Of a DNA stretch of 58,326 nucleotides, positions 1,261 through 58,326 are shown piece after piece. Below the pieces are notes generated by a model that worked only from the letters and a program-made list of their open reading frames with translations, was not told the origin of the DNA and ran no database searches. The stretch spans positions 1 through 58,326 of IMG/VR virus record IMGVR_UViG_3300031509_000052. The stretch is one strand, 5' to 3'. The position numbers and the translations under genes are program-made. This stretch comes from a virus (Duplodnaviria; Caudoviricetes). Positions within the stretch are counted from its first letter, which is position 1, and every line of letters starts with the position of its first letter.

Positions 1261-1264
1261 TGCT

Positions 1265-2158: not shown

Positions 2159-3057
2159 TGGCAGTCCTCATCTACGAACGCGCCATCCACGTCGACGAGG
2201 AAACCGGCGAACTCCGCTCCTACTGGCCTGAGTACTGGCCGCTCGAGCGGCTCGCCGAGCGCTGGCGCATCCTCGGCTCCGGGGCTTTCGCCGCTTCTTA
2301 CCAGAACGACCCCACCGCACTTCAAGGCAACGCCCTCGAGCGCGACTGGCTGACCTTCTACCTCCCGGACGAACTCGAAGCCGCCCGCGAGGCCGCCGGT
2401 GTAGAACGCGGGCAGATCATCGCCGGCGTGGACCCGGCCCGCGGCGGCACAGGCCGCCATGCGGACTACTTCGCCGCAGTCCTCGGCGAACTCATCGACA
2501 ACACCCTCTTCCTCATCGACAACTTCAACCGCCGCCTCCCCATCGAGCACCAGGCCCAGTTCCTCGAAGACTGGCTCACCGCCCGCGGCGGCATCCTCTA
2601 CGGCGTGATCGAAGACACCTCGGCCCGCGGCTATGTCTGGAACGACCTCCAGAACGTCAACGGCGGCGCCGGCTCCCGCTACAACTGGATCATCGAAAAG
2701 GTCCAAGGCCGCGGCGCGGTGGGCTCGAAAGAGATGCGCTTTCTGGCCATGGCACCGCGCTTCAAGTCCGGGCAGGTCCGCATTCCCGGCCGCCGCCTCA
2801 ACTCCGGTCAGCTCGATCCTGCACCCGCATGGGAGACCTTCGTCCAGCAGTGGTGTGCGTTCCCCGGAGGCCACGACGACCTCCTCGATGCCGCCTACTG
2901 GTGCCAGTACGCCGCCTTCGCCAAGGCCCAGCCGCCCGCCGCCGCGCAGGGCGCTCCGCGGCCGGGCCTCTGCCCGCACAACCGGCCTGAGGCTTCCTGC
3001 TATGATTGCAACTCTGTAAGCGGCCGCCGCATGCGGTTCGGCATCTTCCGCCGCTAA
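2158..3057 (+). CDS. terL: Terminase large subunit, C-terminal RNase H-like nuclease part
   Basis: YWPEYWPLERL, FAASYQNDP, GVDPA..DY, FPGGHDDLLDA motifs; TGATG overlap with the ATPase ORF. Confidence 0.85.
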   Translation: MAVLIYERAIHVDEETGELRSYWPEYWPLERLAERWRILGSGAFAASYQNDPTALQGNALERDWLTFYLPDELEAAREAAGVERGQIIAGVDPARGGTGRHADYFAAVLGELIDNTLFLIDNFNRRLPIEHQAQFLEDWLTARGGILYGVIEDTSARGYVWNDLQNVNGGAGSRYNWIIEKVQGRGAVGSKEMRFLAMAPRFKSGQVRIPGRRLNSGQLDPAPAWETFVQQWCAFPGGHDDLLDAAYWCQYAAFAKAQPPAAAQGAPRPGLCPHNRPEASCYDCNSVSGRRMRFGIFRR

Positions 3058-5896: not shown

Positions 5897-6168
5897 CTGA
5901 TGCACTCACCTTCGCCGCATCCGCGCCGTTCGTGGCCCTGATCATCCAGCTCCTGATCAAGCCGCTCTTCCCTGCGGTTCACGGCAGGCTCACGCCCATT
6001 GTGGCGTTCGTCATCGCCTGCGCATGGGGCGGCGTCCTCTCTTATACCGGCGACTTCGACGGCAATGCCGCGGAGTTCATCTTCCTCGCGGTGACCGTGG
6101 CTGCCGCGGCTGCCGGGGTGAAGTCCTGGGTTGATGAAGTAAGAGTGAGGAACGGCAGCGATGGCTGA
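5893..6168 (+). CDS. Putative holin (three TM)
   Basis: 91 aa, three hydrophobic helices, charged C-terminus; ggagg SD. Confidence 0.55.
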   Translation: MTDALTFAASAPFVALIIQLLIKPLFPAVHGRLTPIVAFVIACAWGGVLSYTGDFDGNAAEFIFLAVTVAAAAAGVKSWVDEVRVRNGSDG

Positions 6169-8566
6169 GAACGAAGAGCTGCTCGAACGCGACTACTCCG
6201 CGGACCAGCGGAAAGACATGGCCGCCAAGGGGCTTGCGCTCCCTGACGGCTCTTTCCCGATCGCGGACATCACTGACCTGAAGAACGCGATCAAAGCGTT
6301 CGGGCGGGCCAAGGACAAAGACGCCGCCAAGCGGCACATCATCAAGCGCGCCAGGCAGCTTGGTGCCACGGACCTCCTCCCCGATGGCTGGCTCGACGAG
6401 TCCGCGCCCGAGGATGATTCCCAGTCTGAGTCCGAGTCCCAGCCCGAGCCCGAACCCTCGACCTCCCGGGCCGAAGAGTCCGCCATCACCACCTCTCTCC
6501 CTGTGGAGGCGGTCTCCGAAGAAGCCCCCACTCCCACCACCTACCGCTTCCGGATGCTTGTCATCCGCCCCGGCCTCAGCGAGAACCGCAACCTCTGGAA
6601 GCCTGAGGTCCTCGCTGAAGCCGCTCCGCTCCTTGATGGCCGGCCGATTTACCTCGACCACGGGCTTGAGCGGAGCATGGCGGATAAGGTCGGCTGGTGG
6701 TCCGATGCCTCCTACATCGATCCCGGGGGCATCTACGCCACCGCCAACATCTTCCGGAACTCCGCGCACCCGTGGCTCGGCCCCATGATCTCCGAGGCGA
6801 TCAAAAACGGCCAGCCGGGGCTGATCGGAGTCAGCATCGATGCCTACGTTACAGGCACCATTGAACCAGGCCCTGACGGCTCGCTCCAGCGGGTTGTTCA
6901 CCGGATCGAGCGCTTCAACTCCGCGGACATTGTCGCGGAGCCTGGCGCTGGGGGGAAACCGGTCGCGGTCGTAGCCGAGGGAATCTGCACCGACGAGGAG
7001 TTGGAAATGCTCGAAAAACTCACTCTCGAAGAGCTTCGCAAGGCGCGACCCGATCTTGTGGAAGCGCTCGCGAAGACGGCTGAGGAGTCTTCTGTGAAAG
7101 AGGAGGCCCCGAAGCCGGAAGCCACCCATGCCGCTGAAGATAGCGGCGTCATCAAGGAAGTCTCCTCCAAACTGGAGGAGCTCACCCGCCAGCTCGCTCT
7201 CCGCGAGCAGCAGGCCGCTCTTGAGGCAAAGCTGAACGCCTCCCGCCTCCCGGACACCTTCAAGAAGCTCGTCCGGGAAGAGGTCGGCGACCGGCTCCTC
7301 GAGGACGGCGCAATGGACGTGATCATTGCGAAGTACGTGGACGCCTTCAACGCCGTCACCTCCTCGGCCGCTGCCGCCCCCGCCGGCCGGGTGGTGTTCC
7401 CGCTGGGGCCCTCCGATTCGCAGATCACGCCCATTGAGCAGGTGGTGGCCGCCCTCGAAGACTGGTTCGGCGCGCCGGACCCGGAGATGAAGGGCAAGTA
7501 CCACCCGATCGACTCGATCCGCCAGTTCTACACGGCGCTGACGGGCGACCGGGACGTCAGCGGCTACTACAACCCGAAGGAGTCGATTATCGGCGACTAC
7601 CTCGGGATGCGGCTCGCTGAAGCCCTGCCGAACCAGCCGAACATCATTGGCGGCTCGACGGTCACCCTGCCGAACATCTTCGGCCTTTCGATGAACCGCG
7701 CCCTCCAGCGGATGTACAAGGGACAGACCCGCTGGTGGGAGCCCGTCGTCACCCGCACGCGGCTCTCGAACTTCAAGGAGCAGCAGCGGATCATCATGCA
7801 CCAGTTCGGCTCCCTCACCAACCGCCCTGTCGGTACTGAGGAGTACACCGAACTGACCTACAGCGAAACCCAAGAAGTCTTCACCCCGACCGGGTACGGT
7901 AACGTGGTCTCGGTGAGCCGCCGGGCCATCATCAACGATGACCTCGACACGATCCGCCGGATCCCGCTGCTCCTCGCCCAGTCGGCCACCTACACGATCA
8001 ACGAGCGCGTCGCCAACCTGTTCCTCGCGAACTCCGGCGCTGGCGTCACGCTCTCTGACGGCTTCACGTGGTTCAACGCGGCCAACCACCAGGGCAACGC
8101 CGGCACGGCGGCGCTCTCCAAGGGCTCGCTGACGGACGCGATCAAGACCGTGGCCGCGATGACCAACCAGGCCGGCAAGCGGATCGGCTGGCAGCTCCGC
8201 TACCTGCTGATCCCCGTCGACCTGCTTGACACGGCCTACGAGATCACCGCCTCGGAGAAGGTGCCCGGTTCGAACAACAACGAGCCGAACTTCATCCGCT
8301 CGCGGTGGGGCATCCCGACGGAGAACGTGATCGTCGTCCCGCAGTTCACCGACGCGAACAACTGGTACGCGCTCGCTGACCCGTCGGAGATCGCCATTAT
8401 CGAGGTCGGCTTCGTCCTCGGCCGCGAAGAGCCGGAGATCTTCGTCCAGGACTCGGAGAACACCGGCACGGTCTTCACGCACGACACCATGATGTTCAAG
8501 GTCCGCCACGAATACGGCATGGGCGTGCTGGACTACCGTGGCTCGTACGGGGCGATCGTTCCCTAA
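6161..8566 (+). CDS. Fused prohead protease-scaffold-major capsid protein (Mu gpT-like capsid domain)
   Basis: N-terminal ALPDGSFPI domain, protease-like YLDH..GVSID..SADIVAEPGAGG, coiled coil, then capsid domain (YGNVVSVSRRAIINDDL, YLLIPVDL, FKVRHEYGMGVLDYRG). Confidence 0.8.
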   Translation: MAENEELLERDYSADQRKDMAAKGLALPDGSFPIADITDLKNAIKAFGRAKDKDAAKRHIIKRARQLGATDLLPDGWLDESAPEDDSQSESESQPEPEPSTSRAEESAITTSLPVEAVSEEAPTPTTYRFRMLVIRPGLSENRNLWKPEVLAEAAPLLDGRPIYLDHGLERSMADKVGWWSDASYIDPGGIYATANIFRNSAHPWLGPMISEAIKNGQPGLIGVSIDAYVTGTIEPGPDGSLQRVVHRIERFNSADIVAEPGAGGKPVAVVAEGICTDEELEMLEKLTLEELRKARPDLVEALAKTAEESSVKEEAPKPEATHAAEDSGVIKEVSSKLEELTRQLALREQQAALEAKLNASRLPDTFKKLVREEVGDRLLEDGAMDVIIAKYVDAFNAVTSSAAAAPAGRVVFPLGPSDSQITPIEQVVAALEDWFGAPDPEMKGKYHPIDSIRQFYTALTGDRDVSGYYNPKESIIGDYLGMRLAEALPNQPNIIGGSTVTLPNIFGLSMNRALQRMYKGQTRWWEPVVTRTRLSNFKEQQRIIMHQFGSLTNRPVGTEEYTELTYSETQEVFTPTGYGNVVSVSRRAIINDDLDTIRRIPLLLAQSATYTINERVANLFLANSGAGVTLSDGFTWFNAANHQGNAGTAALSKGSLTDAIKTVAAMTNQAGKRIGWQLRYLLIPVDLLDTAYEITASEKVPGSNNNEPNFIRSRWGIPTENVIVVPQFTDANNWYALADPSEIAIIEVGFVLGREEPEIFVQDSENTGTVFTHDTMMFKVRHEYGMGVLDYRGSYGAIVP

Positions 8567-48235: not shown

Positions 48236-48898
48236 CTATGCGGGAAGGTCGCCGCCGACCTGCCCGCGCACCCCGTAGTACTCGCAGAGCACATCGAGGA
48301 GCGCTTCCGGGTCGATGTGGACCACCTCGCGAATATCGCATGGCAGGTTCATCGAGCGCGCACAGTAGGTCGGCATCGCCGGCAGCGACGTCGACACGTG
48401 AGCGACGCGCGGCGGAACCCAGATGTACTCGAGCCGCGCCGCCGAGGCCCTCCAGCCGTACTCGCCTTCGAGGACGACGCCCCACGCGCGCACGGCAGCG
48501 AGGACCTCGAGGCTGCAGTACATGTACCCGCTGAGGCTCTCTGAGAGGCGGTCGAACGGTGCGGCATCCGCCACCAAGTAGCGGTCTGCCTTGAGCTTGG
48601 CGACCGTCTTGTACCCCCACACACCGCAGGTGTGCTCGCCGTACTTCAAATGGTCGATGCACATCTGCCGCGTGTCGGAGGATTGGTTCTTGCGCTTGAC
48701 GACGTAGCCGTTGCGCAGTGCGGTGAGGGCATCGTCGTAGCGCGCCTTTTCACCGCCGCAGCGGCCGATCAGGTCCCGGCCCTCCCACTCGTTGCCGTAC
48801 GCGCCGGTCAGGACGACCTTATCTGCGTAGACGGTGGGATGAAAGACGCGGTACATGATGATCTGCTCGCTGCTCTGGACAACCGGGAGGAGCGGCAT
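48236..48898 (-). CDS. Conserved hypothetical Cys/His protein (paralog B)
   Basis: HTCGVWGY..AWGVVLEGEYGWRASAARL; ggaggagg SD. Confidence 0.6.
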   Translation of the reverse strand: MPLLPVVQSSEQIIMYRVFHPTVYADKVVLTGAYGNEWEGRDLIGRCGGEKARYDDALTALRNGYVVKRKNQSSDTRQMCIDHLKYGEHTCGVWGYKTVAKLKADRYLVADAAPFDRLSESLSGYMYCSLEVLAAVRAWGVVLEGEYGWRASAARLEYIWVPPRVAHVSTSLPAMPTYCARSMNLPCDIREVVHIDPEALLDVLCEYYGVRGQVGGDLPA

Positions 48899-48918
48899 GG
48901 TACTGATCCTCCTCCTCC

Positions 48919-49077
48919 CTAGTTCCGGCCGCGCCGGACAGGAACGGGAACAAGCTCCCGTTCCTCATCCGGCACAACCGCGGGCTCCGGTGCTGGAGCA
49001 GGCGCGGGAGTGATCACCGGAGCCTCGACGGGCTTCGGGACCACGACGACGCGCAGCGGCCTGCCGATATCGCCCAT
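48919..49077 (-). CDS. 52-aa Pro-rich peptide (not in ORF track)
   Basis: MGDIGRPLRVVVVPKPVEAPVITPAPAPAPEP..; ggaggtg SD; fills the gap exactly. Confidence 0.65.
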   Translation of the reverse strand: MGDIGRPLRVVVVPKPVEAPVITPAPAPAPEPAVVPDEERELVPVPVRRGRN

Positions 49078-49086
49078 GGCTTTTCT

Positions 49087-49506
49087 CTACACCTCCAGTA
49101 TGAACTCGTGTGCGGGTGCGGTACGGACAGTAGCAAACTGTCCGTAGTGGACAAGGTCCAGAGGGGAGCGTTCCGGCACGACGATGTGCCGGATCTCCAC
49201 CTCTGCAGCGCGGAAGCCGCGCTCACTGAGCACGACGTGTGTGCCGGGCACAGCGGCGACCCGCACAAGGGCGAGCCGCCGCTGCACGAATGCCGCGCGG
49301 CGGAATGCGTCCATCTTCGTGAAGTAGACGTAGATCCCGCACGTGCAGGACTCGACCGGCGCATCGTGCGACGGGTTTACGAGGCACCGCGCTTTCTGGC
49401 GCGGTGTGTCCCAGACCTCGTCTGTCGTGAAGGCGCGGAGCCTGCCGTCATCGCCGACAAGCATCCCGCGCCAGCCGAACGTGATGAGCACGTCAGCAGT
49501 AGTCAA
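49087..49506 (-). CDS. Conserved hypothetical Cys/His protein (paralog A)
   Basis: GWR..ARC..HDAP..CTCGIY..VVLSERGFRAAEVEI; TTG start with ggagg SD. Confidence 0.6.
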   Translation of the reverse strand: MTTADVLITFGWRGMLVGDDGRLRAFTTDEVWDTPRQKARCLVNPSHDAPVESCTCGIYVYFTKMDAFRRAAFVQRRLALVRVAAVPGTHVVLSERGFRAAEVEIRHIVVPERSPLDLVHYGQFATVRTAPAHEFILEV

Positions 49507-50704
49507 CCTTGCCCTCCGCAGCGAGGAGCGCGACGTGCATGCCTTTCGGCGTGAGTTCGCGCCCGCGATCCGTGCGAGCAATGAAGCCGAGCCGAACAAG
49601 GTTCGGCTCATAGACGCGCTCGATCGTTTCCACCGACTCACCAAGGCTTGCAGCAATGGCACGGACACCGACCGCCTTCCTGCTTGAGAACATGACGCGC
49701 TTGTAGATCGCAAGGAGGATCTCACGTTCGAACCGCGTGAGCCCGTACTTGTCGATCTGCATGGCGCGCATCGCCATGTCCACGATATCAGGCCGGAGCG
49801 GCGCGCTGGAGACGTCGAACGGCACGGTGTCGTCCTCCGGGTCAGGCATCTCAGCCACCGCGAAGTCGAAGACTCGCTTGAGCAGCTGGTTCGCCTGCCG
49901 CGGAACGCCTTTCGCACGCGCAGCGATCATCTCCAGCGCCTGCTGGGCGGGCGACTTTACCTCGATCGGCTCACCATCCGGGCCGCTGACGATGCCTGGA
50001 GCGAAGAGCCCGTCAACGTAGTTGTCGTACTCTTCCGACTCCAGCTCCCAGAGGATCCGGAAGGATCGCCGCAGCATCTTCGTGATGTCTTCGTCGCTGT
50101 AGTACTCGAGGTGATACTTCAGCGGGAAGCGGTCGAGGAAGGCCCGCGGCAGGATGGCCGGGTCCGTTGTCGCGCCGACAACGGTGAACCGCGGGACGAC
50201 ATGATCGACGAAGCGGAAATCCTCGAGGAGCGGGAGGAGCACCGTGATGGCGTCCTTCGGCAGCCCGTGGATTTCGTCGATCATGATGATCACCTGCGTC
50301 GGCGGGGTTTCAGCGGCTGCGTTGATGACCGCGGCAACGTGTGAGATGACACGTTCCTTGGACATCGACGGGCCGGTGTCGACAATGAGCGCATGGCCCA
50401 TCTCCGCCGCAAGCACCGACGCGATCGTGGTCTTGCCGAGACCGGGAGGCCCGGTCAGGAGGATGTGATCGAGCGGCACGCCGCGGCGCTGGGCCGCGCG
50501 CATGTAGGTGCGGAGCGTGCGCTTGATCTCATCCTGACCGACCACGTCATCGAGACGGCGCGGCCGCAGGGAATCATCGTGGACGTCGTCCAGTTCGCCG
50601 TGGTAGAGCGTCGAGACAGTCAGCAGGGCCCCATCAACAGGGGACCCAATGCTGCTGCTGCTATCAGAGTCGTCGGCCGAAAGCCGGGACAGGATATTCG
50701 TCAT
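49493..50704 (-). CDS. ruvB: RuvB-like Holliday junction branch-migration ATPase
   Basis: LRPRRLDDVVGQ, LDHILLTGPPGLGKTT, IDEIH, FTVVGATT, DRF, GVPR, YEPNL..RTDRGR. Confidence 0.88.
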   Translation of the reverse strand: MTNILSRLSADDSDSSSSIGSPVDGALLTVSTLYHGELDDVHDDSLRPRRLDDVVGQDEIKRTLRTYMRAAQRRGVPLDHILLTGPPGLGKTTIASVLAAEMGHALIVDTGPSMSKERVISHVAAVINAAAETPPTQVIIMIDEIHGLPKDAITVLLPLLEDFRFVDHVVPRFTVVGATTDPAILPRAFLDRFPLKYHLEYYSDEDITKMLRRSFRILWELESEEYDNYVDGLFAPGIVSGPDGEPIEVKSPAQQALEMIAARAKGVPRQANQLLKRVFDFAVAEMPDPEDDTVPFDVSSAPLRPDIVDMAMRAMQIDKYGLTRFEREILLAIYKRVMFSSRKAVGVRAIAASLGESVETIERVYEPNLVRLGFIARTDRGRELTPKGMHVALLAAEGKVDYC

Positions 50705-51507
50705 GCCTCTTCCTCCGTGTAGGTGATGCCGAAGATGCGCTGCGCAACAACAGCGCCGCTCCAGTTCGAACCCGCGAGCCGCCGCCGTTCGAGCACTTCG
50801 AACTCGTCCGGGGCGTTCTCCTGAATCAGCGCGCGCCACGACGGATACGTGGAGCCGTGCCGCACACCGACTGTTGCACCGATGAGGTGCGCGTACTCAG
50901 CGGCGGCGCCGGTGATCACGTAGCGCGTCGGGCGGCGGCCGCGCGTTGCAGACGGGCTGCGGCGCTGCCGCCGCGTGTTGTGCGCGGCTGATGCCTTGAA
51001 GCGGATGCTGGACTCGGACTCGGCCACGACTTCGATCTGCGTCGAATAGCCGAGTGCTGTGATCTCAGCAACACGCTCCGCGGCGAGGTTCTCGATCGCA
51101 TCAGCGATCTGCGACTGGAGGCTGGCGTTCTTGCGCAGCCGCTCGGCATCTGCGCGCAGCCGCTCGACTGTTGCCGCCAGTTCAGGCGGCCGGAAGAGCA
51201 GCAGGCGCTGACCCGGTGAAAGCGGCGGCACGTCGGTCAGCTCGATTGCCTCGCGATCTGCGAGAAGCTGACCAACCAGCGATTCCTGTTCCGCGGCATC
51301 GAGACGATCGCGAAGCCGCTCGAGTTTGAGGATTTTCCCGCTGAGCGCCTTTACATGCTGGCGGAAGATCACCAGCGCTTGGCTTTGCGGGTCCTGTTCT
51401 TCGAGCGACTTCACCGACTCCGTCAACGACGCGAGCGCGGCCTTTGCTTCGGACAGTTGCTTCTCCACTTCTGCCCGGAGCAGGGGGGTCGATTCCCCCG
51501 GTTTCAT
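50701..51507 (-). CDS. Coiled-coil hypothetical protein
   Basis: aaggaggtga SD; heptad-rich N-terminus, basic C-terminal domain. Confidence 0.6.
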   Translation of the reverse strand: MKPGESTPLLRAEVEKQLSEAKAALASLTESVKSLEEQDPQSQALVIFRQHVKALSGKILKLERLRDRLDAAEQESLVGQLLADREAIELTDVPPLSPGQRLLLFRPPELAATVERLRADAERLRKNASLQSQIADAIENLAAERVAEITALGYSTQIEVVAESESSIRFKASAAHNTRRQRRSPSATRGRRPTRYVITGAAAEYAHLIGATVGVRHGSTYPSWRALIQENAPDEFEVLERRRLAGSNWSGAVVAQRIFGITYTEEEA

Positions 51508-51529
51508 GGGTCTCACCTCCTTGCGCCAG

Positions 51530-51603
51530 TTGCGCACACCGTACGAGGAGTAGATTGTACTCCATGTACGGTGTGCGCAAGCATGCCAATGAGGCATGCT
51601 TGC
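51530..51603. repeat. Two overlapping inverted repeats
   Basis: ttgcgcacaccgtac/gtacggtgtgcgcaa (15 bp, inner ggagta/tactcc) and gcaagcatgcc/ggcatgcttgc (11 bp). Confidence 0.8.
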
Positions 51604-51624
51604 AACAACGGAGGGTGGTGTACT

Positions 51625-52578
51625 TTACAGGAAGTGCACGACGAGGTTGCGGATGTTGCTGAGCAGCATAGGGGTTACCTCTGTGCCGCCGATCGAATCC
51701 ACAACCGTGCAGCGGAGCCCCAAGCGGGGCGCGGCGATGATCGTGCCGAGTTTGCGCGGGTCGCCGGTGTACCGCGGCCCCGGCCATCTGCTCGACCATT
51801 GCGAGTAGTACGTGATCCACTCGCCGGGGTGCAGAGGATCGGGAGTGAAGACGCGGATCACCGGGCTGTTGTCGACAGCGTACGCTGCGATCTGTACGAC
51901 GTACTCGAGCGGCGCGCCCACTCCGACGGCATGGTGGATCACGCCGGTCTCCGAATTGCGCACCGTGAGGATGTCGCCAGTGACCAGCGGGTACTCCATG
52001 CCGCCGCGGCGGATGGCGAGGAAGTCTGCGGTTCGTTCCGCTTCGCCGTAGGCGAGACCGCACATGAGCGGCCTATCGCCGTCGAGCACCACGTCGAAGA
52101 TGCGCTTGTAGCGCACATCGTCGAGGATCGACGGCGACTCCGGAAGCGACTCAGCGAACGGGATCGGGAGTTCGAGCCGCACGATTTCCAGCTTGTAGAC
52201 TGGACCATCGTCGGTCTCGAACTCGTCGGCCCACATGATCGCGCGGCCCCCCTTGTACGGCACGATGTGCTCGGTGTCCGCAGCGAGCGGCTCCGTCCGC
52301 CAGTAGGTGCCCGGCCGGGAAAGATCAACCTCTTCAGCAGAGATGACCCACGGCTGCGCCTCTACAACGTGCGGCCTCGGCCCCTGCACGTACAGGTAGG
52401 AGTCTCGGCTAGGGCTGCCGCCATTGTACACGTCGGCATTGCCGAACCACCCCGGCGCCACGTTTGCGGCGTAGTCATCGGCTTCGTCCCATGCGGACTC
52501 GTCGATGTCGACGCCCTGATCCTTCAGCACGACCAATGCGTACCGGCGTGCTGCTTCCCGGTTCTGAAAAACCGGCAT
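51625..52578 (-). CDS. Hypothetical protein
   Basis: aaggaggtga SD directly after hammerhead 1. Confidence 0.65.
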   Translation of the reverse strand: MPVFQNREAARRYALVVLKDQGVDIDESAWDEADDYAANVAPGWFGNADVYNGGSPSRDSYLYVQGPRPHVVEAQPWVISAEEVDLSRPGTYWRTEPLAADTEHIVPYKGGRAIMWADEFETDDGPVYKLEIVRLELPIPFAESLPESPSILDDVRYKRIFDVVLDGDRPLMCGLAYGEAERTADFLAIRRGGMEYPLVTGDILTVRNSETGVIHHAVGVGAPLEYVVQIAAYAVDNSPVIRVFTPDPLHPGEWITYYSQWSSRWPGPRYTGDPRKLGTIIAAPRLGLRCTVVDSIGGTEVTPMLLSNIRNLVVHFL

Positions 52579-52595
52579 CTTGGTACTCACCTCCT

Positions 52596-52664
52596 TGGCC
52601 TGCCATCTTCAGTGCCGGTAGGCCAGCTCCGGCAGACGGGAGCAATCGCTGCTCCCGTTTCGGC
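52596..52664 (-). ncRNA. Hammerhead ribozyme type II (copy 1)
   Basis: GCC GAAA CGGGAGCA-loop-UGCUCCCG UC^ UGCCGG-AGCUGGCCUA-CCGGCA CUGAAGA U GGC AGGCCA; predicted cut after 52635. Confidence 0.9.
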
Positions 52665-52892
52665 TTACTTATCGGCGAGTTTGTTATCGAAGAGTTCGCC
52701 TGCGGCGATCTCACAGGCTGCTTCAAAGAGGAAGTCTTCTTCTTCGCTGAGGTCACACTCAATCAGCTCCCAGAGCTTCTTGAGCAGACGTTCAGCTTCG
52801 GCCTTTTCCTCTTCGGTCAGCGCTTCCCAGGCGGCGTAGGCTTCGGCCCGCGCCGCCTGGTACTCCTGCCACTCGTCTTCGTTCATCATCAC
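52665..52892 (-). CDS. Small acidic protein
   Basis: ~75 aa, 23 D/E vs 7 K/R; aggaggtga SD. Confidence 0.65.
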   Translation of the reverse strand: MMMNEDEWQEYQAARAEAYAAWEALTEEEKAEAERLLKKLWELIECDLSEEEDFLFEAACEIAAGELFDNKLADK

Positions 52893-53287
52893 TACTCTTT
52901 CTCACCTCCTCCTGCGGTTACAGCAGAGAACGCCGGGAGCACCGCGGCTGCGGCTTTTACAAGCTGCGCGTCGCCGAAGAGCACCCACGGTGTGTGTTTG
53001 ACGACGATCAGGCCGCCATAGGCGAAGGCGGGCTCGATCGCGACCGGCGCGAACGGCTCATCGGCGAAGATCGCCGCGAACAGCCGCGTCCAGTCGGGGA
53101 GCGTGTCGGGGCCCTTTACAGTCAGGAACCGCTCGCCGATCGTGATGTGCACAGTGAGGCTGTAGCCAGTCTCATTGACTATCACAGCACCGCGGCGATG
53201 CGCGACTATAACGGGGCTCCCGACCTGCAGCACTTCCGCAGGAGCGGGTGCAGCCGCTTGGGCTGCGGCTGCTACGGGATAAAGCAC
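52892..53287 (-). CDS. Hypothetical protein
   Basis: GTG 53287 after aaggaggtga SD; the longer ORF-track start lies inside the ribozyme. Confidence 0.6.
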   Translation of the reverse strand: MLYPVAAAAQAAAPAPAEVLQVGSPVIVAHRRGAVIVNETGYSLTVHITIGERFLTVKGPDTLPDWTRLFAAIFADEPFAPVAIEPAFAYGGLIVVKHTPWVLFGDAQLVKAAAAVLPAFSAVTAGGGEKE

Positions 53288-53300
53288 GGTGATCACCTCC

Positions 53301-53372
53301 TTGGCCTGCCTATCATCAGTGCATGGCGGCCAACCCATGCAGACAGGGGTTTCCGCCAACCCCTGTTTCGGC
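53301..53372 (-). ncRNA. Hammerhead ribozyme type II (copy 2)
   Basis: GCC GAAA CAGGGGUU-loop-AACCCCUG UC^ UGCAUGG-GUUGGCCG-CCAUGCA CUGAUGA UA GGC AGGCCAA; predicted cut after 53342. Confidence 0.9.
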
Positions 53373-53403
53373 TGTTCGAGGTTTACTTGGGCTCAGCGCC
53401 TGT

Positions 53404-53736
53404 TTACCCGTGGTAGCAGGCGCTGAGCAGCGTCTGCGGCACATACGTGCCGGTGTCTGCGTTCCAGTGAAGGAACGTGACAGGCCGCGGCTCGATAGAA
53501 ACCGCAGCCTCGAGAATCGCGAGTGCGGCCGGCGTAAAGCCGGACACCACTACAGCGAACGGGCCCTCGCGAGGGATGATCCTCCTCGCCATGCGCGTCA
53601 GCTCCGCTGGATTCAGCGGTAGCTCATTCGGGAAAATTGGCGGCCCCACTACAACGGGGCCGATGCCATCGATCGTGATGGTCTGCCCCGGCCGCACGTG
53701 ACGCGCGGTCATCGTGAAAATGGGATGATTTTTCAC
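53404..53736 (-). CDS. Hypothetical protein (possible CARF/SAVED-like fold)
   Basis: VVVSGFTPAALAIL..VTFLHWNADTGTYVPQ; aaggaggtga SD. Confidence 0.55.
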   Translation of the reverse strand: MKNHPIFTMTARHVRPGQTITIDGIGPVVVGPPIFPNELPLNPAELTRMARRIIPREGPFAVVVSGFTPAALAILEAAVSIEPRPVTFLHWNADTGTYVPQTLLSACYHG

Positions 53737-53760
53737 TTCGTCTGTCTCACCTCCTTGTTC

Positions 53761-53830
53761 GGCCTGCCAATCATCAGTGCGCGGAGGCCATCCCGCGCAG
53801 ACAGGGGCTCCGCCCGCCCCTGTTTCGGCA
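53761..53830 (-). ncRNA. Hammerhead ribozyme type II (copy 3)
   Basis: UGCC GAAA CAGGGGC-loop-GCCCCUG UC^ UGCGCGG-GAUGGCCU-CCGCGCA CUGAUGA UU GGCA GGCC; predicted cut after 53800. Confidence 0.9.
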
Positions 53831-53831
53831 G

Positions 53832-54095
53832 TTAGCTTTCGAGAATCGGGAGGAAGAGATCCTCCTTTTCGCCGATGAATACGCGCGCGAGCCGCGCCTC
53901 AGGAGAAAGACCCAGAATGTGCCGAGCAAGCCGTTCGGCCTGCTGGCCCGGGTCTTCCTCGTAACGCCGCCCCTCTACAATGCGCGCGTGGCACACTCCG
54001 ATCGGAGAGTGCGCCGTAACGGCGAGCCGCGGACCTTTGCAGTCCGTGGCTGGAAGATATTTGACCCGTGCGTAGTCGGTATCGTAGTACGGCAC
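53832..54095 (-). CDS. Hypothetical phage protein
   Basis: VKYLPATDCKGPRL; aaaggag SD. Confidence 0.6.
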   Translation of the reverse strand: MPYYDTDYARVKYLPATDCKGPRLAVTAHSPIGVCHARIVEGRRYEEDPGQQAERLARHILGLSPEARLARVFIGEKEDLFLPILES

Positions 54096-54150
54096 CCCTA
54101 AACTCCTTTGATTGTGTGTTGAGCGCTTTACAGTGTCGATCGTAGTTTAT

Positions 54151-54228
54151 GGCGCGGACCCTGCGAGGCGAACCACAGGTTCAGATGTACGGCATGACAC
54201 GCCGCGATGTGCCGCAGGGACCCGCGCC
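54151..54228 (-). ncRNA. Candidate structured RNA (three-way junction)
   Basis: GGCGCGG..CCCUGCG / CGCAGGG..CCGCGCC closing stem enclosing two hairpins. Confidence 0.4.
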
Positions 54229-54235
54229 TTTACAA

Positions 54236-54445
54236 TCACGCGCCGGGTACCTTCCAGTGCCCCGCGCGTCGACCGACAACGCTGGCTTCGACGTACCGCC
54301 GCGCTCCGCAGCGGCACTCTTCGACGTGCACCACGTTGCCGTGGTACATGTCACCGTAGCCCCGTGCGGAGCAATCGATCGCGGCCACGCAGTAGTGCCA
54401 AAGCTGCGTCATCGTCGAAGCGGCACGGTGCCTCTTGTGCAGCAC
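54236..54445 (-). CDS. Small His/Cys-rich protein
   Basis: aaggaggtga SD after hammerhead 4; HxH and CRCG. Confidence 0.55.
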   Translation of the reverse strand: MLHKRHRAASTMTQLWHYCVAAIDCSARGYGDMYHGNVVHVEECRCGARRYVEASVVGRRAGHWKVPGA

Positions 54446-54464
54446 CTTTCACTCACCTCCTTTC

Positions 54465-54538
54465 GGCCTGCCATCATTCAGCACCGGTAGGCCACCTCCG
54501 GTGGACCGCGGGCTGCGTTTACAGCACGCGGTTTCGGC
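54465..54538 (-). ncRNA. Hammerhead ribozyme type II (copy 4, core variant CUGAAUGA)
   Basis: GCC GAAA CCGCG..CGCGG UC^ CACCGG-AGGUGGCCUA-CCGGUG CUGAAUGA U GGC AGGCC; predicted cut after 54504. Confidence 0.8.
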
Positions 54539-55086
54539 TATGCGGGGAGCGTGACGCCGTAGGTTTTCGACACGCTGTTGTAGACGCGAGACTCGAGGAC
54601 TCGCGCCTTTACAACAGTCGCGTAGTCCATGATCGCGTCAAACTGCCGCGGGGAAAGCGGCAGTTTGTACTTGCGATCCTCCTCCGGTGTTTCCATCCAC
54701 TCCACGATCTGATCGCGGAGTGAGCGGCGGAACGGCGAGCGGAACTCCTTTGTCTTCAGGAGATTGACGATCGCCAGCACCGCGGGCATTCCCGCGCGCT
54801 CCTTTACAAGCATGAGCGCGCGCTGCCATGTCTCCGGCCATTCGGCCGGAACAATTGCCCACAGGTAGCGCCAGTCAATCTCGTTACGGCACCACTCTGC
54901 AGGATCCATCCAGTCCGGCAGCACCACGCGCTTTACAAGAAAGCGCGGCGCTTCGTACTGGGTGAAGTCGTCGGGCCCCTGAATGAACGCTTTCTGTTCT
55001 TCGAGGAGCTCAGCATCCTTCGCGGGATCAAACTCCCGCAGAGGCGCCAGCGTGTCGCTCACCTCGCCGTTCCGTTCGAACAGCAC
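54538..55086 (-). CDS. Hypothetical phage protein
   Basis: 182 aa, bounded by hammerheads 5 and 4. Confidence 0.65.
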   Translation of the reverse strand: MLFERNGEVSDTLAPLREFDPAKDAELLEEQKAFIQGPDDFTQYEAPRFLVKRVVLPDWMDPAEWCRNEIDWRYLWAIVPAEWPETWQRALMLVKERAGMPAVLAIVNLLKTKEFRSPFRRSLRDQIVEWMETPEEDRKYKLPLSPRQFDAIMDYATVVKARVLESRVYNSVSKTYGVTLPA

Positions 55087-55125
55087 CTCAACTGTTTTCG
55101 TAGATCACCTCCTGATAGAAATTGC

Positions 55126-55193
55126 GGCTTACCATCATCAGAGCGCATGTTGCCATCATGCGCTGAGCCCGATTCCGTCATCGGGCTTTCGGC
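55126..55193 (-). ncRNA. Hammerhead ribozyme type II (copy 5)
   Basis: GCC GAAA GCCCGAU-loop-AUCGGGC UC^ AGCGCAUG-AUGGCAA-CAUGCGCU CUGAUGA U GGU AAGCC; predicted cut after 55165 (CUC triplet). Confidence 0.85.
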
Positions 55194-55201
55194 TGGTTCC
55201 T

Positions 55202-55858
55202 TTACTTGGAAGCTGCGGCCGCGGCTTCTGCAAGCCGCGCCGCAACTTCACGATCGACACGGAGCGCTGCCGCCCCGTACCGGATGACTGACTCGACGGC
55301 GGCGATCAGTTCGTACCCATAACCGCCGGCGATTTCATTGACGAAATCGCTGAACGGCATGAGCACGTACCGCGCCGTGTCTTCGTCGCTACGCGGGCAC
55401 GCGTACCGCATGGCCGCACTGAGCGCCACACCAACGCCGAGCAGCTGCGGCGACTTCTGCGCCCACGCGACATACACGGGTGTCTGCGGAGCAATCCACC
55501 CGTGGTGTCGCTTGAGCGCGTTTACATGCGGCCTCGCTGCGAAGACCGCGCGCGCGATTGCAACCGCCGGATCTTCCGACGCTACGGTGTGCCGGATTTG
55601 ATACGGTCCCTCCACGTCAGCGACATAGAGGGGACCCTTTTCCGTGCGGACAATGTCGATCCACACCGTCACCTCGCCTTCGTCGTTTTCAACGAAGGCC
55701 CGGTAGCCGGTTGCGACCGGCGCGATGTCGATCAGCGGCCTGTTGTGCTCGCCGTATGCATCGGCGAGCATCTTCATCGCGCTGCGGATGATCTCGTCCA
55801 TGACGAGATCATCACCGCTGCTGATCGTCGTGCTGGGGTTTTCCACCCCCGTGTCCAT
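55202..55858 (-). CDS. Hypothetical protein
   Basis: aaggaggtg SD before ATG 55858. Confidence 0.6.
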   Translation of the reverse strand: MDTGVENPSTTISSGDDLVMDEIIRSAMKMLADAYGEHNRPLIDIAPVATGYRAFVENDEGEVTVWIDIVRTEKGPLYVADVEGPYQIRHTVASEDPAVAIARAVFAARPHVNALKRHHGWIAPQTPVYVAWAQKSPQLLGVGVALSAAMRYACPRSDEDTARYVLMPFSDFVNEIAGGYGYELIAAVESVIRYGAAALRVDREVAARLAEAAAAASK

Positions 55859-55971
55859 TTACTCACACCTCCTTGTGTTTCTTCAGTCAGCGATCGCCGC
55901 GCGTTTACAAACGCGCGCGTCGTGCGATCACTCGTACACACATACGCGGCCGCGTTTACAAACGCGTGGAA

Positions 55972-56062
55972 GCGTATCGCCGCTGATACCCGCACGCATG
56001 CGACAATCGCCGCGTGCGTGCGGGTATCAGCGGCGATACGCGCACCTGGTGCGCGTATCGCC
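55972..56062. repeat. Two overlapping long inverted repeats
   Basis: ~31-bp stem 55972-56041 with one mismatch; 15-bp perfect IR ggcgatacgcgcacc-t-ggtgcgcgtatcgcc at 56032-56062. Confidence 0.85.
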
Positions 56063-56083
56063 TGTTTGTTGTGGGTCTACCTG

Positions 56084-56290
56084 CTAGAGCGCCGTAGTCC
56101 TGAAGCGGCACGTATCCTCTGGTTCGTCGATCCACCAGTAGGTGAGCGTGCCGCTCTCATCATCAACGGCGTCGAAGTAGTAACATACTGCGTCGGTGTA
56201 CGGGATTTCTCCCAAACACCTCTCGATTGTGTGCCGTCCGAGCCACTTGGTGCGAATTTCGTGGACGTGAATCCACTTGTGGTTGTTCAC
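56084..56290 (-). CDS. Hypothetical protein
   Basis: GTG 56290 with ggagg SD. Confidence 0.5.
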   Translation of the reverse strand: MNNHKWIHVHEIRTKWLGRHTIERCLGEIPYTDAVCYYFDAVDDESGTLTYWWIDEPEDTCRFRTTAL

Positions 56291-56457
56291 TTGAACCTCC
56301 ACGAAAAATTTCCGCGCATTTACAAACGCGCGCAGTGCCGCGTTTACAAACGCGCGTATGCGTATGCGAACTTTCGCTCGCACACACATACGCGCGCCGA
56401 TCGCCGATGGCGATCGGACGCGGCCGCGCGCCCAGGGCGCTGAGACCTGGTCTCAGT

Positions 56458-56471
56458 AGAACATTTGTTCT
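56458..56471. promoter_or_regulatory. LexA box of GAAC-N4-GTTC type
   Basis: AGAAC-ATTT-GTTCT palindrome in a non-coding region. Confidence 0.5.
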
Positions 56472-56494
56472 GAATGCGATTCGGTCTCGAATTG

Positions 56495-56537
56495 GACTCA
56501 GTCTAAATCTGGAATGAATCCAGATTTAGACTGAGTC
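56495..56537. repeat. Perfect 19-bp AT-rich inverted repeat
   Basis: gactcagtctaaatctgga-atgaa-tccagatttagactgagtc. Confidence 0.9.
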
Positions 56538-56573
56538 TAGGTCTAGGCTTCGCGTCCTGGTGGCGCGCGGGTG

Positions 56574-57014
<441 letters not shown>

Positions 57015-57109
57015 AGGCGAACCTCCAAGTTGGGATCGTCGGGAGTGTCGCATGCGGCCGCCCGCGGCCGCCACGGCATGGCGTCATATGGTAAATGACT
57101 CCGGCCCCT

Positions 57110-57460
57110 CCTGGCGCTTCGGCGGCCGCGCCTGCGCCTTCGGCGGCCGCGCCTTCGGCCGCCTATGGCCATTCCCTGCGCCTACGGGCCGCTTGCGGCC
57201 GCTACGGGCCGCCTACGGGCCCGTACGCCTGCGCTACGCCATACGGGCCGCATACGCCCGCCTGCGGGCGCTTGCGGCCGCTATGGGCCGCTACGGGCCG
57301 CTACGGCCGCCTATGCGCCATACGGCCGCGCTTGCGGGCGCTTGCGGCCGCTTGCGCCCGCCTAGGGCTTCCTAGGGCTTCCTAGGGCTTCCTACGGCCG
57401 CTTGCGCGTCCTACGGCCGCTGGCGTACTGTGGGCACTGCGGCGGCCGCTACGGCCGTTA
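57110..57460. repeat. Degenerate short tandem repeat tract
   Basis: Units such as ctacg(g)gccg, cttgcg(g)gc(c)g, cttcggcggccgcgc and cctagggctt x3. Confidence 0.8.
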
Positions 57461-57482
57461 GCTCTACTGCTGGAGGGTCACG

Positions 57483-58100
57483 ATGACCATCGACTACGAG
57501 CGCGCCCGTGCCGAAGCGGAAGCGCGCATCAATGCATGGTTGAAAATTCTAGCCATGCAAGAACGGGCGCTTTCGAACGCCCGCATCGCTGCGGCCGTTC
57601 GGGCGCGGGCGCGGGCGGCCGCGCCTGCCGTCGCGTTCGCGAAAGCGGCCGCGAAGGAAGTTACGGCCGCCTACGATGCGCTGGCGCTGGCGCGCTTCGA
57701 AGCGCTGCGCCTGACGCAGTCGGCCGCGGGCGCCCGCCGGGCCGCGTGGCGCAAGCTTCGCGTGGCGCTGCGCTTGCGCTGCGCTTGCCATGCGGCCGCG
57801 GCCGTCGCGGCCGTCGATGCGGCCGTCGCAGCGGGCGCGGCCGCGCGCGAAGCGCGGGCCCGGGCGCAATCGGCAGCGGCCGCCTACGCCCGCGCTTGTG
57901 CCGAAAGCGAACGTTACCGGTACGAAGCTTCGGTGATCCTGTACGGGGGATGGTCAGTCGCGCCCGATGACCCGGGCGCGCCCGCGGCCGATGCGGCCGT
58001 CAGCACTGACGCCTTGATCGCGGCCGTGTACTCCGCGGCCGCGCCCGCCATCCGCGCCATGCGGCCGCGCCCGCGGGCGCAGTCGGGCGCGCAGGCGTAG
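57483..58100 (+). CDS. Ala/Arg-rich hypothetical protein
   Basis: ggagg SD and ATG; low complexity. Confidence 0.45.
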   Translation: MTIDYERARAEAEARINAWLKILAMQERALSNARIAAAVRARARAAAPAVAFAKAAAKEVTAAYDALALARFEALRLTQSAAGARRAAWRKLRVALRLRCACHAAAAVAAVDAAVAAGAAAREARARAQSAAAAYARACAESERYRYEASVILYGGWSVAPDDPGAPAADAAVSTDALIAAVYSAAAPAIRAMRPRPRAQSGAQA

Positions 58101-58139
58101 GCGGCCGCGCCCGCCCGCATAGCACCAGGACACATTACG

Positions 58140-58169
58140 CCACCGGATGGGACCCATCCCGTCCGGTGG
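58140..58169 (+). terminator. Hairpin after last ORF
   Basis: ccaccgga..tccggtgg outer stem. Confidence 0.45.
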
Positions 58170-58183
58170 TCCGCCTGTTATGG

Positions 58184-58211
58184 TTGCCACCCCCACAACC
58201 CGCGATATACT
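58184..58211 (+). promoter_or_regulatory. Possible promoter reading towards the genome end
   Basis: TTGCCA-16-TATACT. Confidence 0.45.
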
Positions 58212-58263
58212 CCCAAAACCCCACCAACAAACCAACGCTACGACGCCAGGCCAAAGCCCTAAG

Positions 58264-58295
58264 GCTATAGGCTATGGGCTATGGGCTATAGCCCC
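58264..58295 (-). repeat. Tandem heptamer array near the right end
   Basis: gctatag gctatgg gctatgg gctatag; reverse complement of the left-end gcccata units. Confidence 0.75.
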
Positions 58296-58326
58296 AAGCC
58301 CCGCCCCCAAGTCCCACTCCACCACT

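What the first reader, a model, noticed from the sequence alone, without database searches (positions are those of the whole stretch)
52635..55164. Excised gene units can rebuild a complete chimeric hammerhead: possible protein-coding circular RNAs
Seen: stem II (GCC with GGC or GGU) is nearly invariant across copies while stems I and III vary. A segment between two cut sites (661, 704, 458 and 707 nt) has stem I-CUGANGA-GGY at its 5' end and GCC-GAAA-stem III-UC at its 3' end, so its two ends can assemble a full ribozyme. Known: cleavage leaves 5'-OH and 2',3'-cyclic phosphate, the substrates for hammerhead ligation and for RtcB. Inference: circular SD+ORF mRNAs, or reshuffled cistrons, from a DNA phage. 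The conserved flanks could also promote DNA-level cassette exchange.
Basis: inference. Interest (0 to 1): 0.85.

Follow-up and report, generated by a model that had tools for sequence, protein, structure and literature searches.

The report
Hammerhead ribozyme array between phage genes
Five self-cutting hammerhead RNAs sit between small early genes of an uncultivated hot-spring phage, an arrangement already known from other phages; it most likely chops a long transcript into single-gene messages, and nothing yet shows that the pieces close into circles.

Summary
Five type II hammerheads lie on the minus strand at 52594-55194. Four pass Rfam's threshold; the fifth scores 25.8 bits against a threshold of 37. 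Stem II is GCC/GGC in four copies and GCC/GGU in one, while stems I and III vary with compensatory changes. Each unit carries a Shine-Dalgarno site and one or two ORFs.

Perreault et al. 2011 described such clusters in prophages, raised spliced or circular products, and reported detecting neither. No RNA run holds this stretch, so back-junctions could not be sought. In other phage arrays, stem II is complementary within each ribozyme (55 of 59) but often not between neighbours (27 of 44). That argues against selection for chimeric reassembly. No phage-encoded RtcB or RNA ligase was found.

Best reading: the ribozymes process a polycistronic early transcript into messages with a hairpin at each end. 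This is a new member of a known kind, of modest interest.

The parts
55122..55194 (-). HH5, a divergent type II hammerhead. Stem II is GCC/GGU, the cut follows CUC with C17 at 55165, and the first nucleotide of the downstream product is 55164.
   Evidence: RF02276, 25.8 bits (below the gathering score of 37), E 0.0019 locally, model 1-66. The stems and core were read.
54462..54539 (-). HH4, a type II hammerhead with C17 at 54504. The core is CUGAAUGA, with one inserted nucleotide. Stem III is long. The UAG stop codon of the upstream gene overlaps the first two nucleotides of the ribozyme.
   Evidence: 41.0 bits. The core was read. Perreault 2011 reports low activity for an insertion after A6.
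53758..53830 (-). HH3, a type II hammerhead with C17 at 53800. Stem II can extend to 5 bp (CUGCC with GGCAG).
   Evidence: 48.0 bits; probability of the cis stem II is 0.98.
53300..53373 (-). HH2, a type II hammerhead with C17 at 53342.
   Evidence: 49.4 bits.
52594..52665 (-). HH1, a type II hammerhead with C17 at 52635. It is kept at the same place in a relative at 80% protein identity, where stem III is wholly different.
   Evidence: 42.6 bits. L119 carries RF02276 at 41.2 bits between the homologues of genes G and H.
55202..55858 (-). Gene A (218 aa), the last gene upstream of the array. Its own Shine-Dalgarno site is present. Function unknown.
   Evidence: GC3 0.75; no Pfam or PHROG family.
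54504..55164 (-). Unit 1 (661 nt) between the HH5 and HH4 cuts. It holds a Shine-Dalgarno site and gene B (54538-55086, 182 aa).
   Evidence: only a weak PHROG hit (phrog_30881, E 6.6e-4); no informative Atlas neighbour.
53800..54503 (-). Unit 2 (704 nt) between the HH4 and HH3 cuts. It holds gene C (54236-54445, 69 aa) and gene D (53832-54095, 87 aa), each with its own Shine-Dalgarno site.
   Evidence: no family.
53342..53799 (-). Unit 3 (458 nt) between the HH3 and HH2 cuts. It holds gene E (53404-53736, 110 aa).
   Evidence: no family.
52635..53341 (-). Unit 4 (707 nt) between the HH2 and HH1 cuts. It holds gene F (52892-53287, GTG start) and gene G (52665-52892, 75 aa). The stop of F and the start of G overlap by one base.
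   Evidence: no family.
51625..52578 (-). Gene H (317 aa from the ATG behind the Shine-Dalgarno site), the first gene after the array. The leftward block continues with a RuvB-like ATPase (49493-50839) and replication genes.
   Evidence: three homologues at 80-90% identity, all unnamed.

Best explanation
The five type II hammerheads are self-cleaving processing sites in the promoter-proximal part of the phage's long leftward early and replication transcript. They fill the gaps between genes. Each begins 0-30 nt after the upstream stop codon and ends 12-35 nt before the next start codon, and a strong Shine-Dalgarno site directly follows the ribozyme's 3' tail.

Co-transcriptional cleavage (inferred, not shown) cuts the polycistronic RNA into one-gene or two-gene messages. 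Because the topology is type II, the cut falls between two closed hairpins. Every message therefore starts with a 5'-OH on the stem I hairpin, which is locked to the tail by a 4-6 bp pseudoknot. It ends with the stem III hairpin plus C17 carrying a 2',3'-cyclic phosphate.

By established knowledge of bacterial mRNA decay (recalled, not tested here), such ends resist 5'-end-dependent RNases and 3' exonucleases. Each cistron also gets a defined leader that is insulated from its neighbours. This allows gene-specific stability and translation.

The short stem II makes the two products fall apart after cutting. As a side effect, the repeated ribozyme sequences mark the borders of DNA modules that are gained, lost or replaced among related phages.
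For: Ribozyme identity: 4 of 5 copies pass Rfam's curated threshold with full-length matches. The fifth matches full length at 25.8 bits. In the five-copy alignment, 13 of 19 pairs show compensatory changes.

Placement: all five copies are on the coding strand and in the gaps between ORFs. Those ORFs have GC3 of 0.67-0.82, against 0.57-0.64 for antisense ORFs, and each is followed by AAGGAGGUGA-like sites.

Conservation: a relative at 80% protein identity keeps HH1 between the same two genes. Stem I is almost unchanged and stem III is completely different but still paired.

Generality: among hammerheads that I detected in other IMG/VR loci, 69 of 90 have an SD-like motif within 42 nt downstream, against 215 of 708 random positions. 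An ORF of at least 40 codons starts within 70 nt in 83 of 90, against 447 of 708. Of 50 records searched, 8 hold 2-11 RF02276 matches.

Literature: Perreault 2011 (passages) proposed this processing role and saw the expected cleavage products from three tandem arrays transcribed in vitro. Reviews repeat the proposal.

Product release: predicted binding of the two halves is weak. Kd is mM-range for 3 of 5 cognate pairs at 37 C and 4 of 5 at 65 C.

DNA modules: whole cut-to-cut units are present or absent among three collinear phages. Similarity breaks at hammerheads in contigs of this phage's relatives.
Against: No RNA data exist for this phage, so neither transcription as one RNA nor cleavage is shown.

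No convincing promoter or terminator was found. The scan gave 3 promoter-like sites against 1.9 expected from shuffles. The polycistronic transcript is inferred only from gene packing and orientation.

HH4 has an inserted core nucleotide of a kind reported to lower activity, and HH5 is below Rfam's threshold.

The stabilising and insulating role of the terminal hairpins is my inference from general knowledge. Reviews still call the function of phage hammerheads an open question.
Confidence: 0.65

Rival explanations
1. The excised units are closed into circular, translatable mRNAs, or are joined to each other in new orders. Closure would occur by the reverse hammerhead reaction on a chimeric ribozyme built from a unit's two ends, or by a host RtcB-type ligase.
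For: The geometry is correct, and all five copies share GCC/GGY. Both strands of the tertiary pseudoknot lie on the same half, at the unit's 5' end, so a chimera would keep it.

In the nearest-neighbour model, the chimeric stem II of the 704-nt unit forms with probability 0.99 at 37 C and 0.8 at 65 C, because it extends to 5 bp. Chimeric and cognate half-to-half binding energies are similar.

RtcB is present in 10 of 14 control genomes, including Thermus thermophilus. An engineering paper's discussion (passages) mentions hammerhead-based circularisation of 83-103 nt RNAs in E. coli at 6.7-9.5% efficiency.
Against: Perreault 2011 looked for spliced or circular products of phage arrays and reported finding neither (data not shown).

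For the other three units, the chimeric stem II probability is 0.0002-0.05 at 37 C. Predicted Kd at 65 C is 0.5-70 mM.

In other arrays, 17 of 44 neighbour pairs lack a full stem II while 55 of 59 ribozymes have one in cis. In those arrays two hammerheads stand only 69-70 nt apart with no gene between them.

No RtcB, RNA_ligase or 2_5_RNA_ligase2 family is found in this record. No RtcB is found in 0 of 30 other hammerhead-bearing phage records, 7 of which are at least 90% complete.

Recalled, not checked here: the hammerhead's internal equilibrium favours cleavage, more so at high temperature.
Confidence: 0.07
2. The hammerheads exist mainly as borders of mobile or exchangeable gene cassettes. 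The repeated ribozyme sequence would be the joint at which small accessory genes are inserted, deleted or swapped at DNA level. RNA cleavage would be secondary.
For: Three related phage contigs (L029, L105, L109) are collinear. L029 has an extra 326-nt cut-to-cut unit with one ORF. L105 and L109 share an extra 1109/1117-nt unit that L029 lacks. Only the ribozyme halves match elsewhere.

In DNA contigs of relatives of this phage:
- 52606-52691 (HH1) is replaced by 82 other letters (X4, side 255).
- A joint runs from 53381 to 53761, across gene E (X4, side 74).
- The gene E block is joined through a hybrid hammerhead to different downstream sequence (X2 and X3, sides 42 and 45).

The cassette proteins have no known family.
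Against: The copies in this window are only 49-82% identical, and their longest shared exact runs are 9-18 nt. They are poor substrates for homologous recombination.

Stems covary to keep the fold (L119), which shows selection on the RNA and not merely on a DNA site.

The joints were laid at 80% likeness. For one, it is not known what lies between its two sides. A further joint (X3, 53834 to 54478) has only 25 letters on its shorter side. Diverged rather than exchanged sequence could explain them. No recombinase is tied to the array.
Confidence: 0.15
3. Cleavage is conditional. Some copies (HH4 with a core insertion, HH5 with a weak stem II) would be slow, or tuned by temperature or Mg, so that the array sets the timing or ratio of early proteins rather than cutting constitutively.
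For: HH4 has an inserted nucleotide after A6, and HH5 scores only 25.8 bits. Perreault 2011 suggests that slower phage variants may be regulated.
Against: No ligand-binding or sensor element is visible, and no data on rates exist. The other three copies are canonical.
Confidence: 0.1

Closest known systems
Clustered hammerhead ribozymes flanking genes in prophages and phages (Perreault et al. 2011, PLoS Comput Biol; passages read; also de la Pena et al. 2017 review)
   Same: Several hammerheads lie close together on one strand, flanking single genes or short blocks of small, non-conserved genes of unknown function in a phage genome. The type II topology has a pseudoknot between loop I and the 3' tail. 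The proposed role is processing of a long transcript. The circular or spliced idea was already voiced there.
   Different: This is an uncultivated phage whose DNA is held by runs labelled hot springs metagenome. It has no close relative in the phage collection: DNA polymerase identity is at most 33.3%. All five copies share one stem II. Stop codons of upstream genes abut or overlap the ribozyme.
Hammerhead-bounded circular RNAs: Avsunviroidae, viral satellites, plant and animal retrozymes (reviews read in passages)
   Same: Units of a few hundred nucleotides are bounded by two hammerhead cuts, with 5'-OH and 2',3'-cyclic phosphate ends that a tRNA ligase or RtcB can join.
   Different: Those elements use type III or type I ribozymes. 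They are tandem copies of the same, mostly non-coding unit, and they fold so that the ends are held together. Their circles have been shown experimentally. Here the topology is type II, the four units are different protein-coding genes, only 3-5 bp would hold the ends, and no circle has been seen.
Ribozymes in 5' UTRs and intergenic regions of linear RNA viruses that yield subgenomic RNAs and aid translation (Nucleic Acids Res 2026, PMC13725137; passages read)
   Same: A hammerhead fills a short intergenic region and cuts just upstream of the next ORF.
   Different: Those are type I ribozymes in eukaryotic RNA viruses. The paper set DNA phage hits aside as already described.
Synthetic ribozyme insulators (RiboJ) and ribozyme-plus-RtcB circularisation (Tornado); recalled, not read here
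   Same: A self-cleaving ribozyme placed before a ribosome-binding site standardises the leader. Ribozyme-made ends are ligated by RtcB when a stem holds them together.
   Different: Those are engineered constructs. Tornado relies on a designed stable closing stem, which these units lack.

Membership tests
Hammerhead ribozyme, type II (Rfam RF02276) | Full-length match to the covariance model at or above the curated gathering score (37 bits) | tested here: met
   4 of 5 copies score 41.0-49.4 bits. HH5 scores 25.8 bits, below the threshold, with a full-length alignment.
Hammerhead ribozyme, type II (Rfam RF02276) | Conserved core: CUGANGA, GAAA, the A15.1-U16.1 pair, and H17 at the cut | tested here: met
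   The core is exact in 4 of 5 copies. HH4 has CUGAAUGA, with one inserted nucleotide. C17 is present in all five. 1-2 extra nucleotides lie between A9 and stem II in all five.
Hammerhead ribozyme, type II (Rfam RF02276) | Three-way junction with stems I and III closed by loops and stem II open | tested here: met
   The RNAalifold consensus of the five copies has 19 pairs, 13 with compensatory changes.
Hammerhead ribozyme, type II (Rfam RF02276) | Pseudoknot between loop I and the tail 3' of stem II | tested here: met
   Loop UGGCC(U) faces tail (A)GGCC in four copies, and UGGC faces GCCG in HH5. I read this by eye as 4-6 possible pairs. In other loci, loop UGACC goes with tail GGUCA.
Hammerhead ribozyme, type II (Rfam RF02276) | Self-cleavage at the predicted site | not testable with these tools
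Clustered phage hammerheads flanking genes (Perreault 2011) | Two or more hammerheads close together on the coding strand, flanking single genes or short gene blocks in a phage or prophage | tested here: met
   Five copies lie within 2.6 kb, separated by one or two ORFs each. The record is a phage, with terminase, capsid-protease, tape measure, DNA polymerase and helicase genes.
Hammerhead-derived circular RNA elements (viroid-like RNAs, retrozymes) | Covalently closed circular RNA detected | not testable with these tools
   No RNA holder was listed for the stretch.
Hammerhead-derived circular RNA elements (viroid-like RNAs, retrozymes) | Tandem copies of one and the same unit, with type III or type I ribozymes | tested here: not met
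   The four units hold different ORFs and have different lengths. The ribozymes are type II and only 49-82% identical to each other.
Ligase-assisted circularisation of ribozyme-cut RNA (RtcB type) | A ligase for 2',3'-cyclic phosphate and 5'-OH ends is at hand | tested here: inconclusive
   No RtcB, RNA_ligase or 2_5_RNA_ligase2 family is found in the 58-kb record, which is estimated 71% complete. The host is unknown. RtcB is common in bacteria, found in 10 of 14 control genomes.
Ligase-assisted circularisation of ribozyme-cut RNA (RtcB type) | A stable pairing that brings the two ends of the unit together | tested here: inconclusive
   Only the 3-bp stem II is available (5 bp in unit 2). Its predicted probability at 37 C is 0.007, 0.99, 0.0002 and 0.05 for the four units. 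The model ignores tertiary contacts.

The most novel reading that the evidence does not exclude
In infected cells, the four ribozyme-bounded gene units are closed into translatable circular mRNAs or are joined in new orders. Closure would come from host RtcB or from the reverse hammerhead reaction on the chimeric ribozyme formed by a unit's own ends. This would be the first case of protein-coding circular RNAs made by a DNA phage.
Probability: 0.07. Interest if true: 0.85.

Novelty: new member of a known kind. Interest (0 to 1): 0.3.

Why it matters
What hammerhead arrays do in phages has been an open question since 2011. This window adds a clean example from a hot-spring phage: five ribozymes in one register with the genes, all carrying the same stem II. 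That makes it a convenient template for testing processing against circularisation in vitro.

Two comparative results here narrow the question. First, stem II is kept complementary within each ribozyme but not between neighbours. Second, whole ribozyme-bounded units come and go among related phages. Together they favour two views: RNA processing sites that leave hairpin-ended messages, and ribozymes that mark module borders. They do not favour a conserved circular-RNA pathway.

If circles were nevertheless found, that would be a new mode of phage gene expression.

Tried and rejected
RNA evidence. The look-up of sequencing runs listed no RNA holder for 52400-55400. It listed five DNA runs labelled hot springs metagenome, one of which may be the source. 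Back-junction reads therefore could not be sought. This says nothing for or against expression.

Relatives of the phage.
- blastn of 51000-58326 against the phage collection gave no match.
- tblastn of gene H gave no match.
- The DNA polymerase is at most 33.3% identical to any phage record.
- The search for related loci with gene H or the RuvB-like protein found nothing in viral contigs, metagenome contigs or genome contigs.
- An alignment of H with its three homologues found one 1111-nt metagenome contig and nothing in viral contigs.
Cassette order in close relatives therefore rests and on L119 only.

caveats. The joint 53834 to 54478 (X3) has only 25 letters on its shorter side, and I give it no weight. 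For several joints, what lies between the two sides is not known. All were laid at 80% likeness, so strong divergence can look like a skip. The joint 54506 to 53359, listed as 'goes back', is in DNA contigs. It is a hybrid hammerhead with a consensus-like stem I, not an RNA back-junction.

Promoters and terminators. The scan of 48500-58326 gave 3 promoter-like sites (1.9 expected) and 5 terminator-like sites (6.7 expected). None is convincing for the leftward operon.

Cassette functions. Pfam gave no family for 9 of 10 proteins. PHROGs gave only weak hits. The Atlas gave nothing informative for gene B.

Other points.
- Rolling-circle translation is not favoured: every unit has stop codons, and the lengths 661, 704, 458 and 707 are not multiples of three.
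- Literature searches found no paper reporting circular RNAs from phage type II hammerhead arrays. The search for 'type II hammerhead' with 'Caudoviricetes' returned 0 papers.
- I did not see the supplements of Perreault 2011 (Figures S1, S2 and the data not shown). They may bear on how hard circles were looked for.

Full report
WHAT IS THERE

The window is an IMG/VR virus record of 58,326 bp. It is linear and estimated 71% complete, with 63.7% G+C. It encodes terminase, a capsid-protease fusion, a tape measure protein, DNA polymerase, helicase and an exonuclease. It is therefore a tailed phage. It has no close relative in the phage collection. The DNA runs that hold it are labelled hot springs metagenome.

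Rfam finds four type II hammerheads (RF02276) above the curated threshold. All are on the minus strand and all are full length: 53300-53373 (49.4 bits), 53758-53830 (48.0), 52594-52665 (42.6) and 54462-54539 (41.0). No other ribozyme family appears at E<=1. A fifth copy at 55122-55194 scores 25.8 bits, below the threshold of 37, in a local scan. It has the full core and both hairpins.

CHECK OF THE OBSERVATION

The cleavage-site C17 lies at 55165, 54504, 53800, 53342 and 52635 (one search read by hand).

RNAalifold on the five copies gives the three-stem hammerhead with 19 pairs. Thirteen pairs carry compensatory double changes, all in stems I and III. Stem II has three pairs: two invariant, and one that is GC in four copies and GU in HH5. 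The statement that stem II is nearly invariant while stems I and III vary is correct.

Three small corrections apply:
- HH4's core has one inserted nucleotide (CUGAAUGA). Perreault 2011 links this kind of change to low activity.
- One or two nucleotides separate the core from GGY in all copies.
- HH5 is cut after CUC.

GENES

On the minus strand the order is: A (218 aa) | HH5 | B (182 aa) | HH4 | C (69 aa), D (87 aa) | HH3 | E (110 aa) | HH2 | F (about 131 aa), G (75 aa) | HH1 | H (317 aa). A RuvB-like ATPase and the replication genes follow.

The ORFs have GC3 of 0.67-0.82, against 0.57-0.64 for antisense ORFs. None of the cassette proteins has a Pfam family, and PHROG hits are weak. The Atlas gave nothing useful for B.

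The ribozymes almost fill the intergenic gaps. The stop codon of B overlaps the first two nucleotides of HH4. The stop of G abuts HH1 and the stop of D lies 1 nt before HH3. An AAGGAGGUGA-like site follows the 3' tail at once.

The geometry is valid. A unit's 5' end holds stem I, the core and the 3' strand of stem II. It also holds both strands of the loop I-tail pseudoknot. Its 3' end holds GCC-GAAA-stem III-C17.

The idea is not new. Perreault et al. [quoted passage not shown] They propose processing of long transcripts. [quoted passage not shown] A 2017 review repeats that such motifs flank ORFs for small, non-conserved proteins and that their role is open. A 2019 review says the same. My six searches found no report of circles from phage type II arrays.

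TESTS THAT BEAR ON IT

(a) Is stem II compatibility selected? I fetched IMG/VR loci holding the core-plus-tail motif. Of 50 records searched, 23 have an RF02276 match, and 8 have 2-11 matches.

In arrays found by my own structure scan (window excluded), stem II is fully complementary within the ribozyme in 55 of 59 cases. Between the neighbours that would form the chimera, it is fully complementary in only 27 of 44. In the 10-11-copy arrays L029, L105 and L109, the numbers of incompatible units are 4 of 10, 5 of 9 and 6 of 9. These three contigs are related to one another, and L030/L056 and L022/L073 look like near-duplicates, so there are few independent lineages. The loci were chosen by a motif that contains GGC, which biases them towards the window's stem II type. 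In these arrays two hammerheads also stand 69-70 nt apart with no gene between them.

(b) Energetics. In the nearest-neighbour model, the chimeric stem II has probability 0.007, 0.99, 0.0002 and 0.05 at 37 C for the four units. The cis values are 0.003-0.98. The high value comes from a 5-bp extension at HH3. Ensemble binding of the two halves gives Kd values of about 2.6 mM, 1 uM, 20 uM and 2.2 mM at 37 C, and 0.5-70 mM at 65 C. These are similar to the cognate product complexes. The model ignores tertiary contacts, so this shows only that the halves are built to part, not that they cannot meet.

(c) Ligase. No RtcB, RNA_ligase or 2_5_RNA_ligase2 family is found in the record. None of 30 other hammerhead-bearing phage records has RtcB, and 7 of those are at least 90% complete. 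A host enzyme would be needed. RtcB is common in bacteria.

(d) RNA reads. None were available.

WHAT IT MOST LIKELY DOES

The placement, the covariation and the conservation of HH1 in a relative all point to selection on the folded RNA at this position. In that relative, L119, stem I is kept, stem III is replaced but still paired, and the score is 41.2 bits.

Across other phage loci, 69 of 90 hammerheads are followed by an SD-like motif, against 215 of 708 random positions. An ORF on the same strand follows in 83 of 90, against 447 of 708.

The type II topology puts the cut between two closed hairpins. Each product therefore begins with a hairpin-pseudoknot on a 5'-OH and ends with a hairpin on a cyclic phosphate. 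From general knowledge of bacterial mRNA decay (recalled), such ends are protective. The leader of each cistron also becomes independent of its neighbours. I take this, processing plus insulation, as the best explanation at confidence 0.65. Cleavage itself is very likely. The purpose is inferred.

DNA-LEVEL MODULES

L029, L105 and L109 are collinear. L029 has an extra 326-nt cut-to-cut unit with one ORF. L105 and L109 share an extra unit of 1109 and 1117 nt respectively that L029 lacks. Only ribozyme halves match elsewhere.

For this phage's own relatives, DNA contigs show three things:
- HH1 is replaced by 82 other letters.
- A joint runs from 53381 to 53761, across gene E.
- The gene E block is joined through a hybrid hammerhead to different downstream sequence.

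Caveats apply. The contigs were laid at 80% likeness, and for the joint across gene E it is not known what lies between its two sides. The copies in this window share only 9-18 nt exact runs and 49-82% identity, which is little for homologous recombination.

VERDICT

The arrangement is a new member of a known kind. The circular-mRNA reading is an old, still untested idea that the comparative data make less likely. I put it at 0.07. Interest is 0.3.

Noticed in passing
window 55904, 55955, 56319, 56343 (+ strand); further copies of the half motif at 51350, 52956, 53115, 54127, 54229, 54518, 54608, 54803, 54932, 55521: A near-palindrome, CGCGTTTACAAACGCG, occurs four times in the region upstream of gene A. 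GC-flanked TTTACA half sites recur in one orientation through the hammerhead operon, and one lies in the stem III loop of HH4. Fifteen of the 24 TTTACA on the + strand lie in the last 7 kb. This may be an operator or regulator site array near the early promoter.
   Followed up: partly
window 971-2158 and 2158-3057 (+): The large terminase subunit is split into two adjoining ORFs. These match PHROG 38 positions 266-465 and 474-713 respectively. This could be a frameshift, a sequencing error or a real split.
   Followed up: no
window 6161-8566 (+): An 801-aa ORF matches both head maturation protease and major head protein families, so it appears to be a fused capsid-protease gene.
   Followed up: no
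L029, L105, L109 (IMG/VR loci; two of the records are estimated 100% complete, 53 kb): These related phages carry arrays of 10-11 type II hammerheads with mixed stem II types (GGC/GCC, GCC/GGC, UGC/GCA). Each array includes two ribozymes back to back, 69-70 nt apart, with no gene between them.
   Followed up: partly
L119 386-467 and the ORF that ends inside it: In the relative, the upstream gene (homologue of G) reads through GCCGAAAC and stops inside the stem III loop of the hammerhead. Coding sequence and ribozyme overlap there.
   Followed up: no
window 55209-55256 (-): A strong GC-rich hairpin lies at the 3' end of gene A, just upstream of HH5. It gives a weak chance-level match to an unrelated sRNA model.
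   Followed up: no
L023 (IMG/VR locus): Five hammerheads with almost identical stem I and stem III sequences are spaced 261-856 nt apart. They look like recent duplications, unlike the diverged copies in the window.
   Followed up: no
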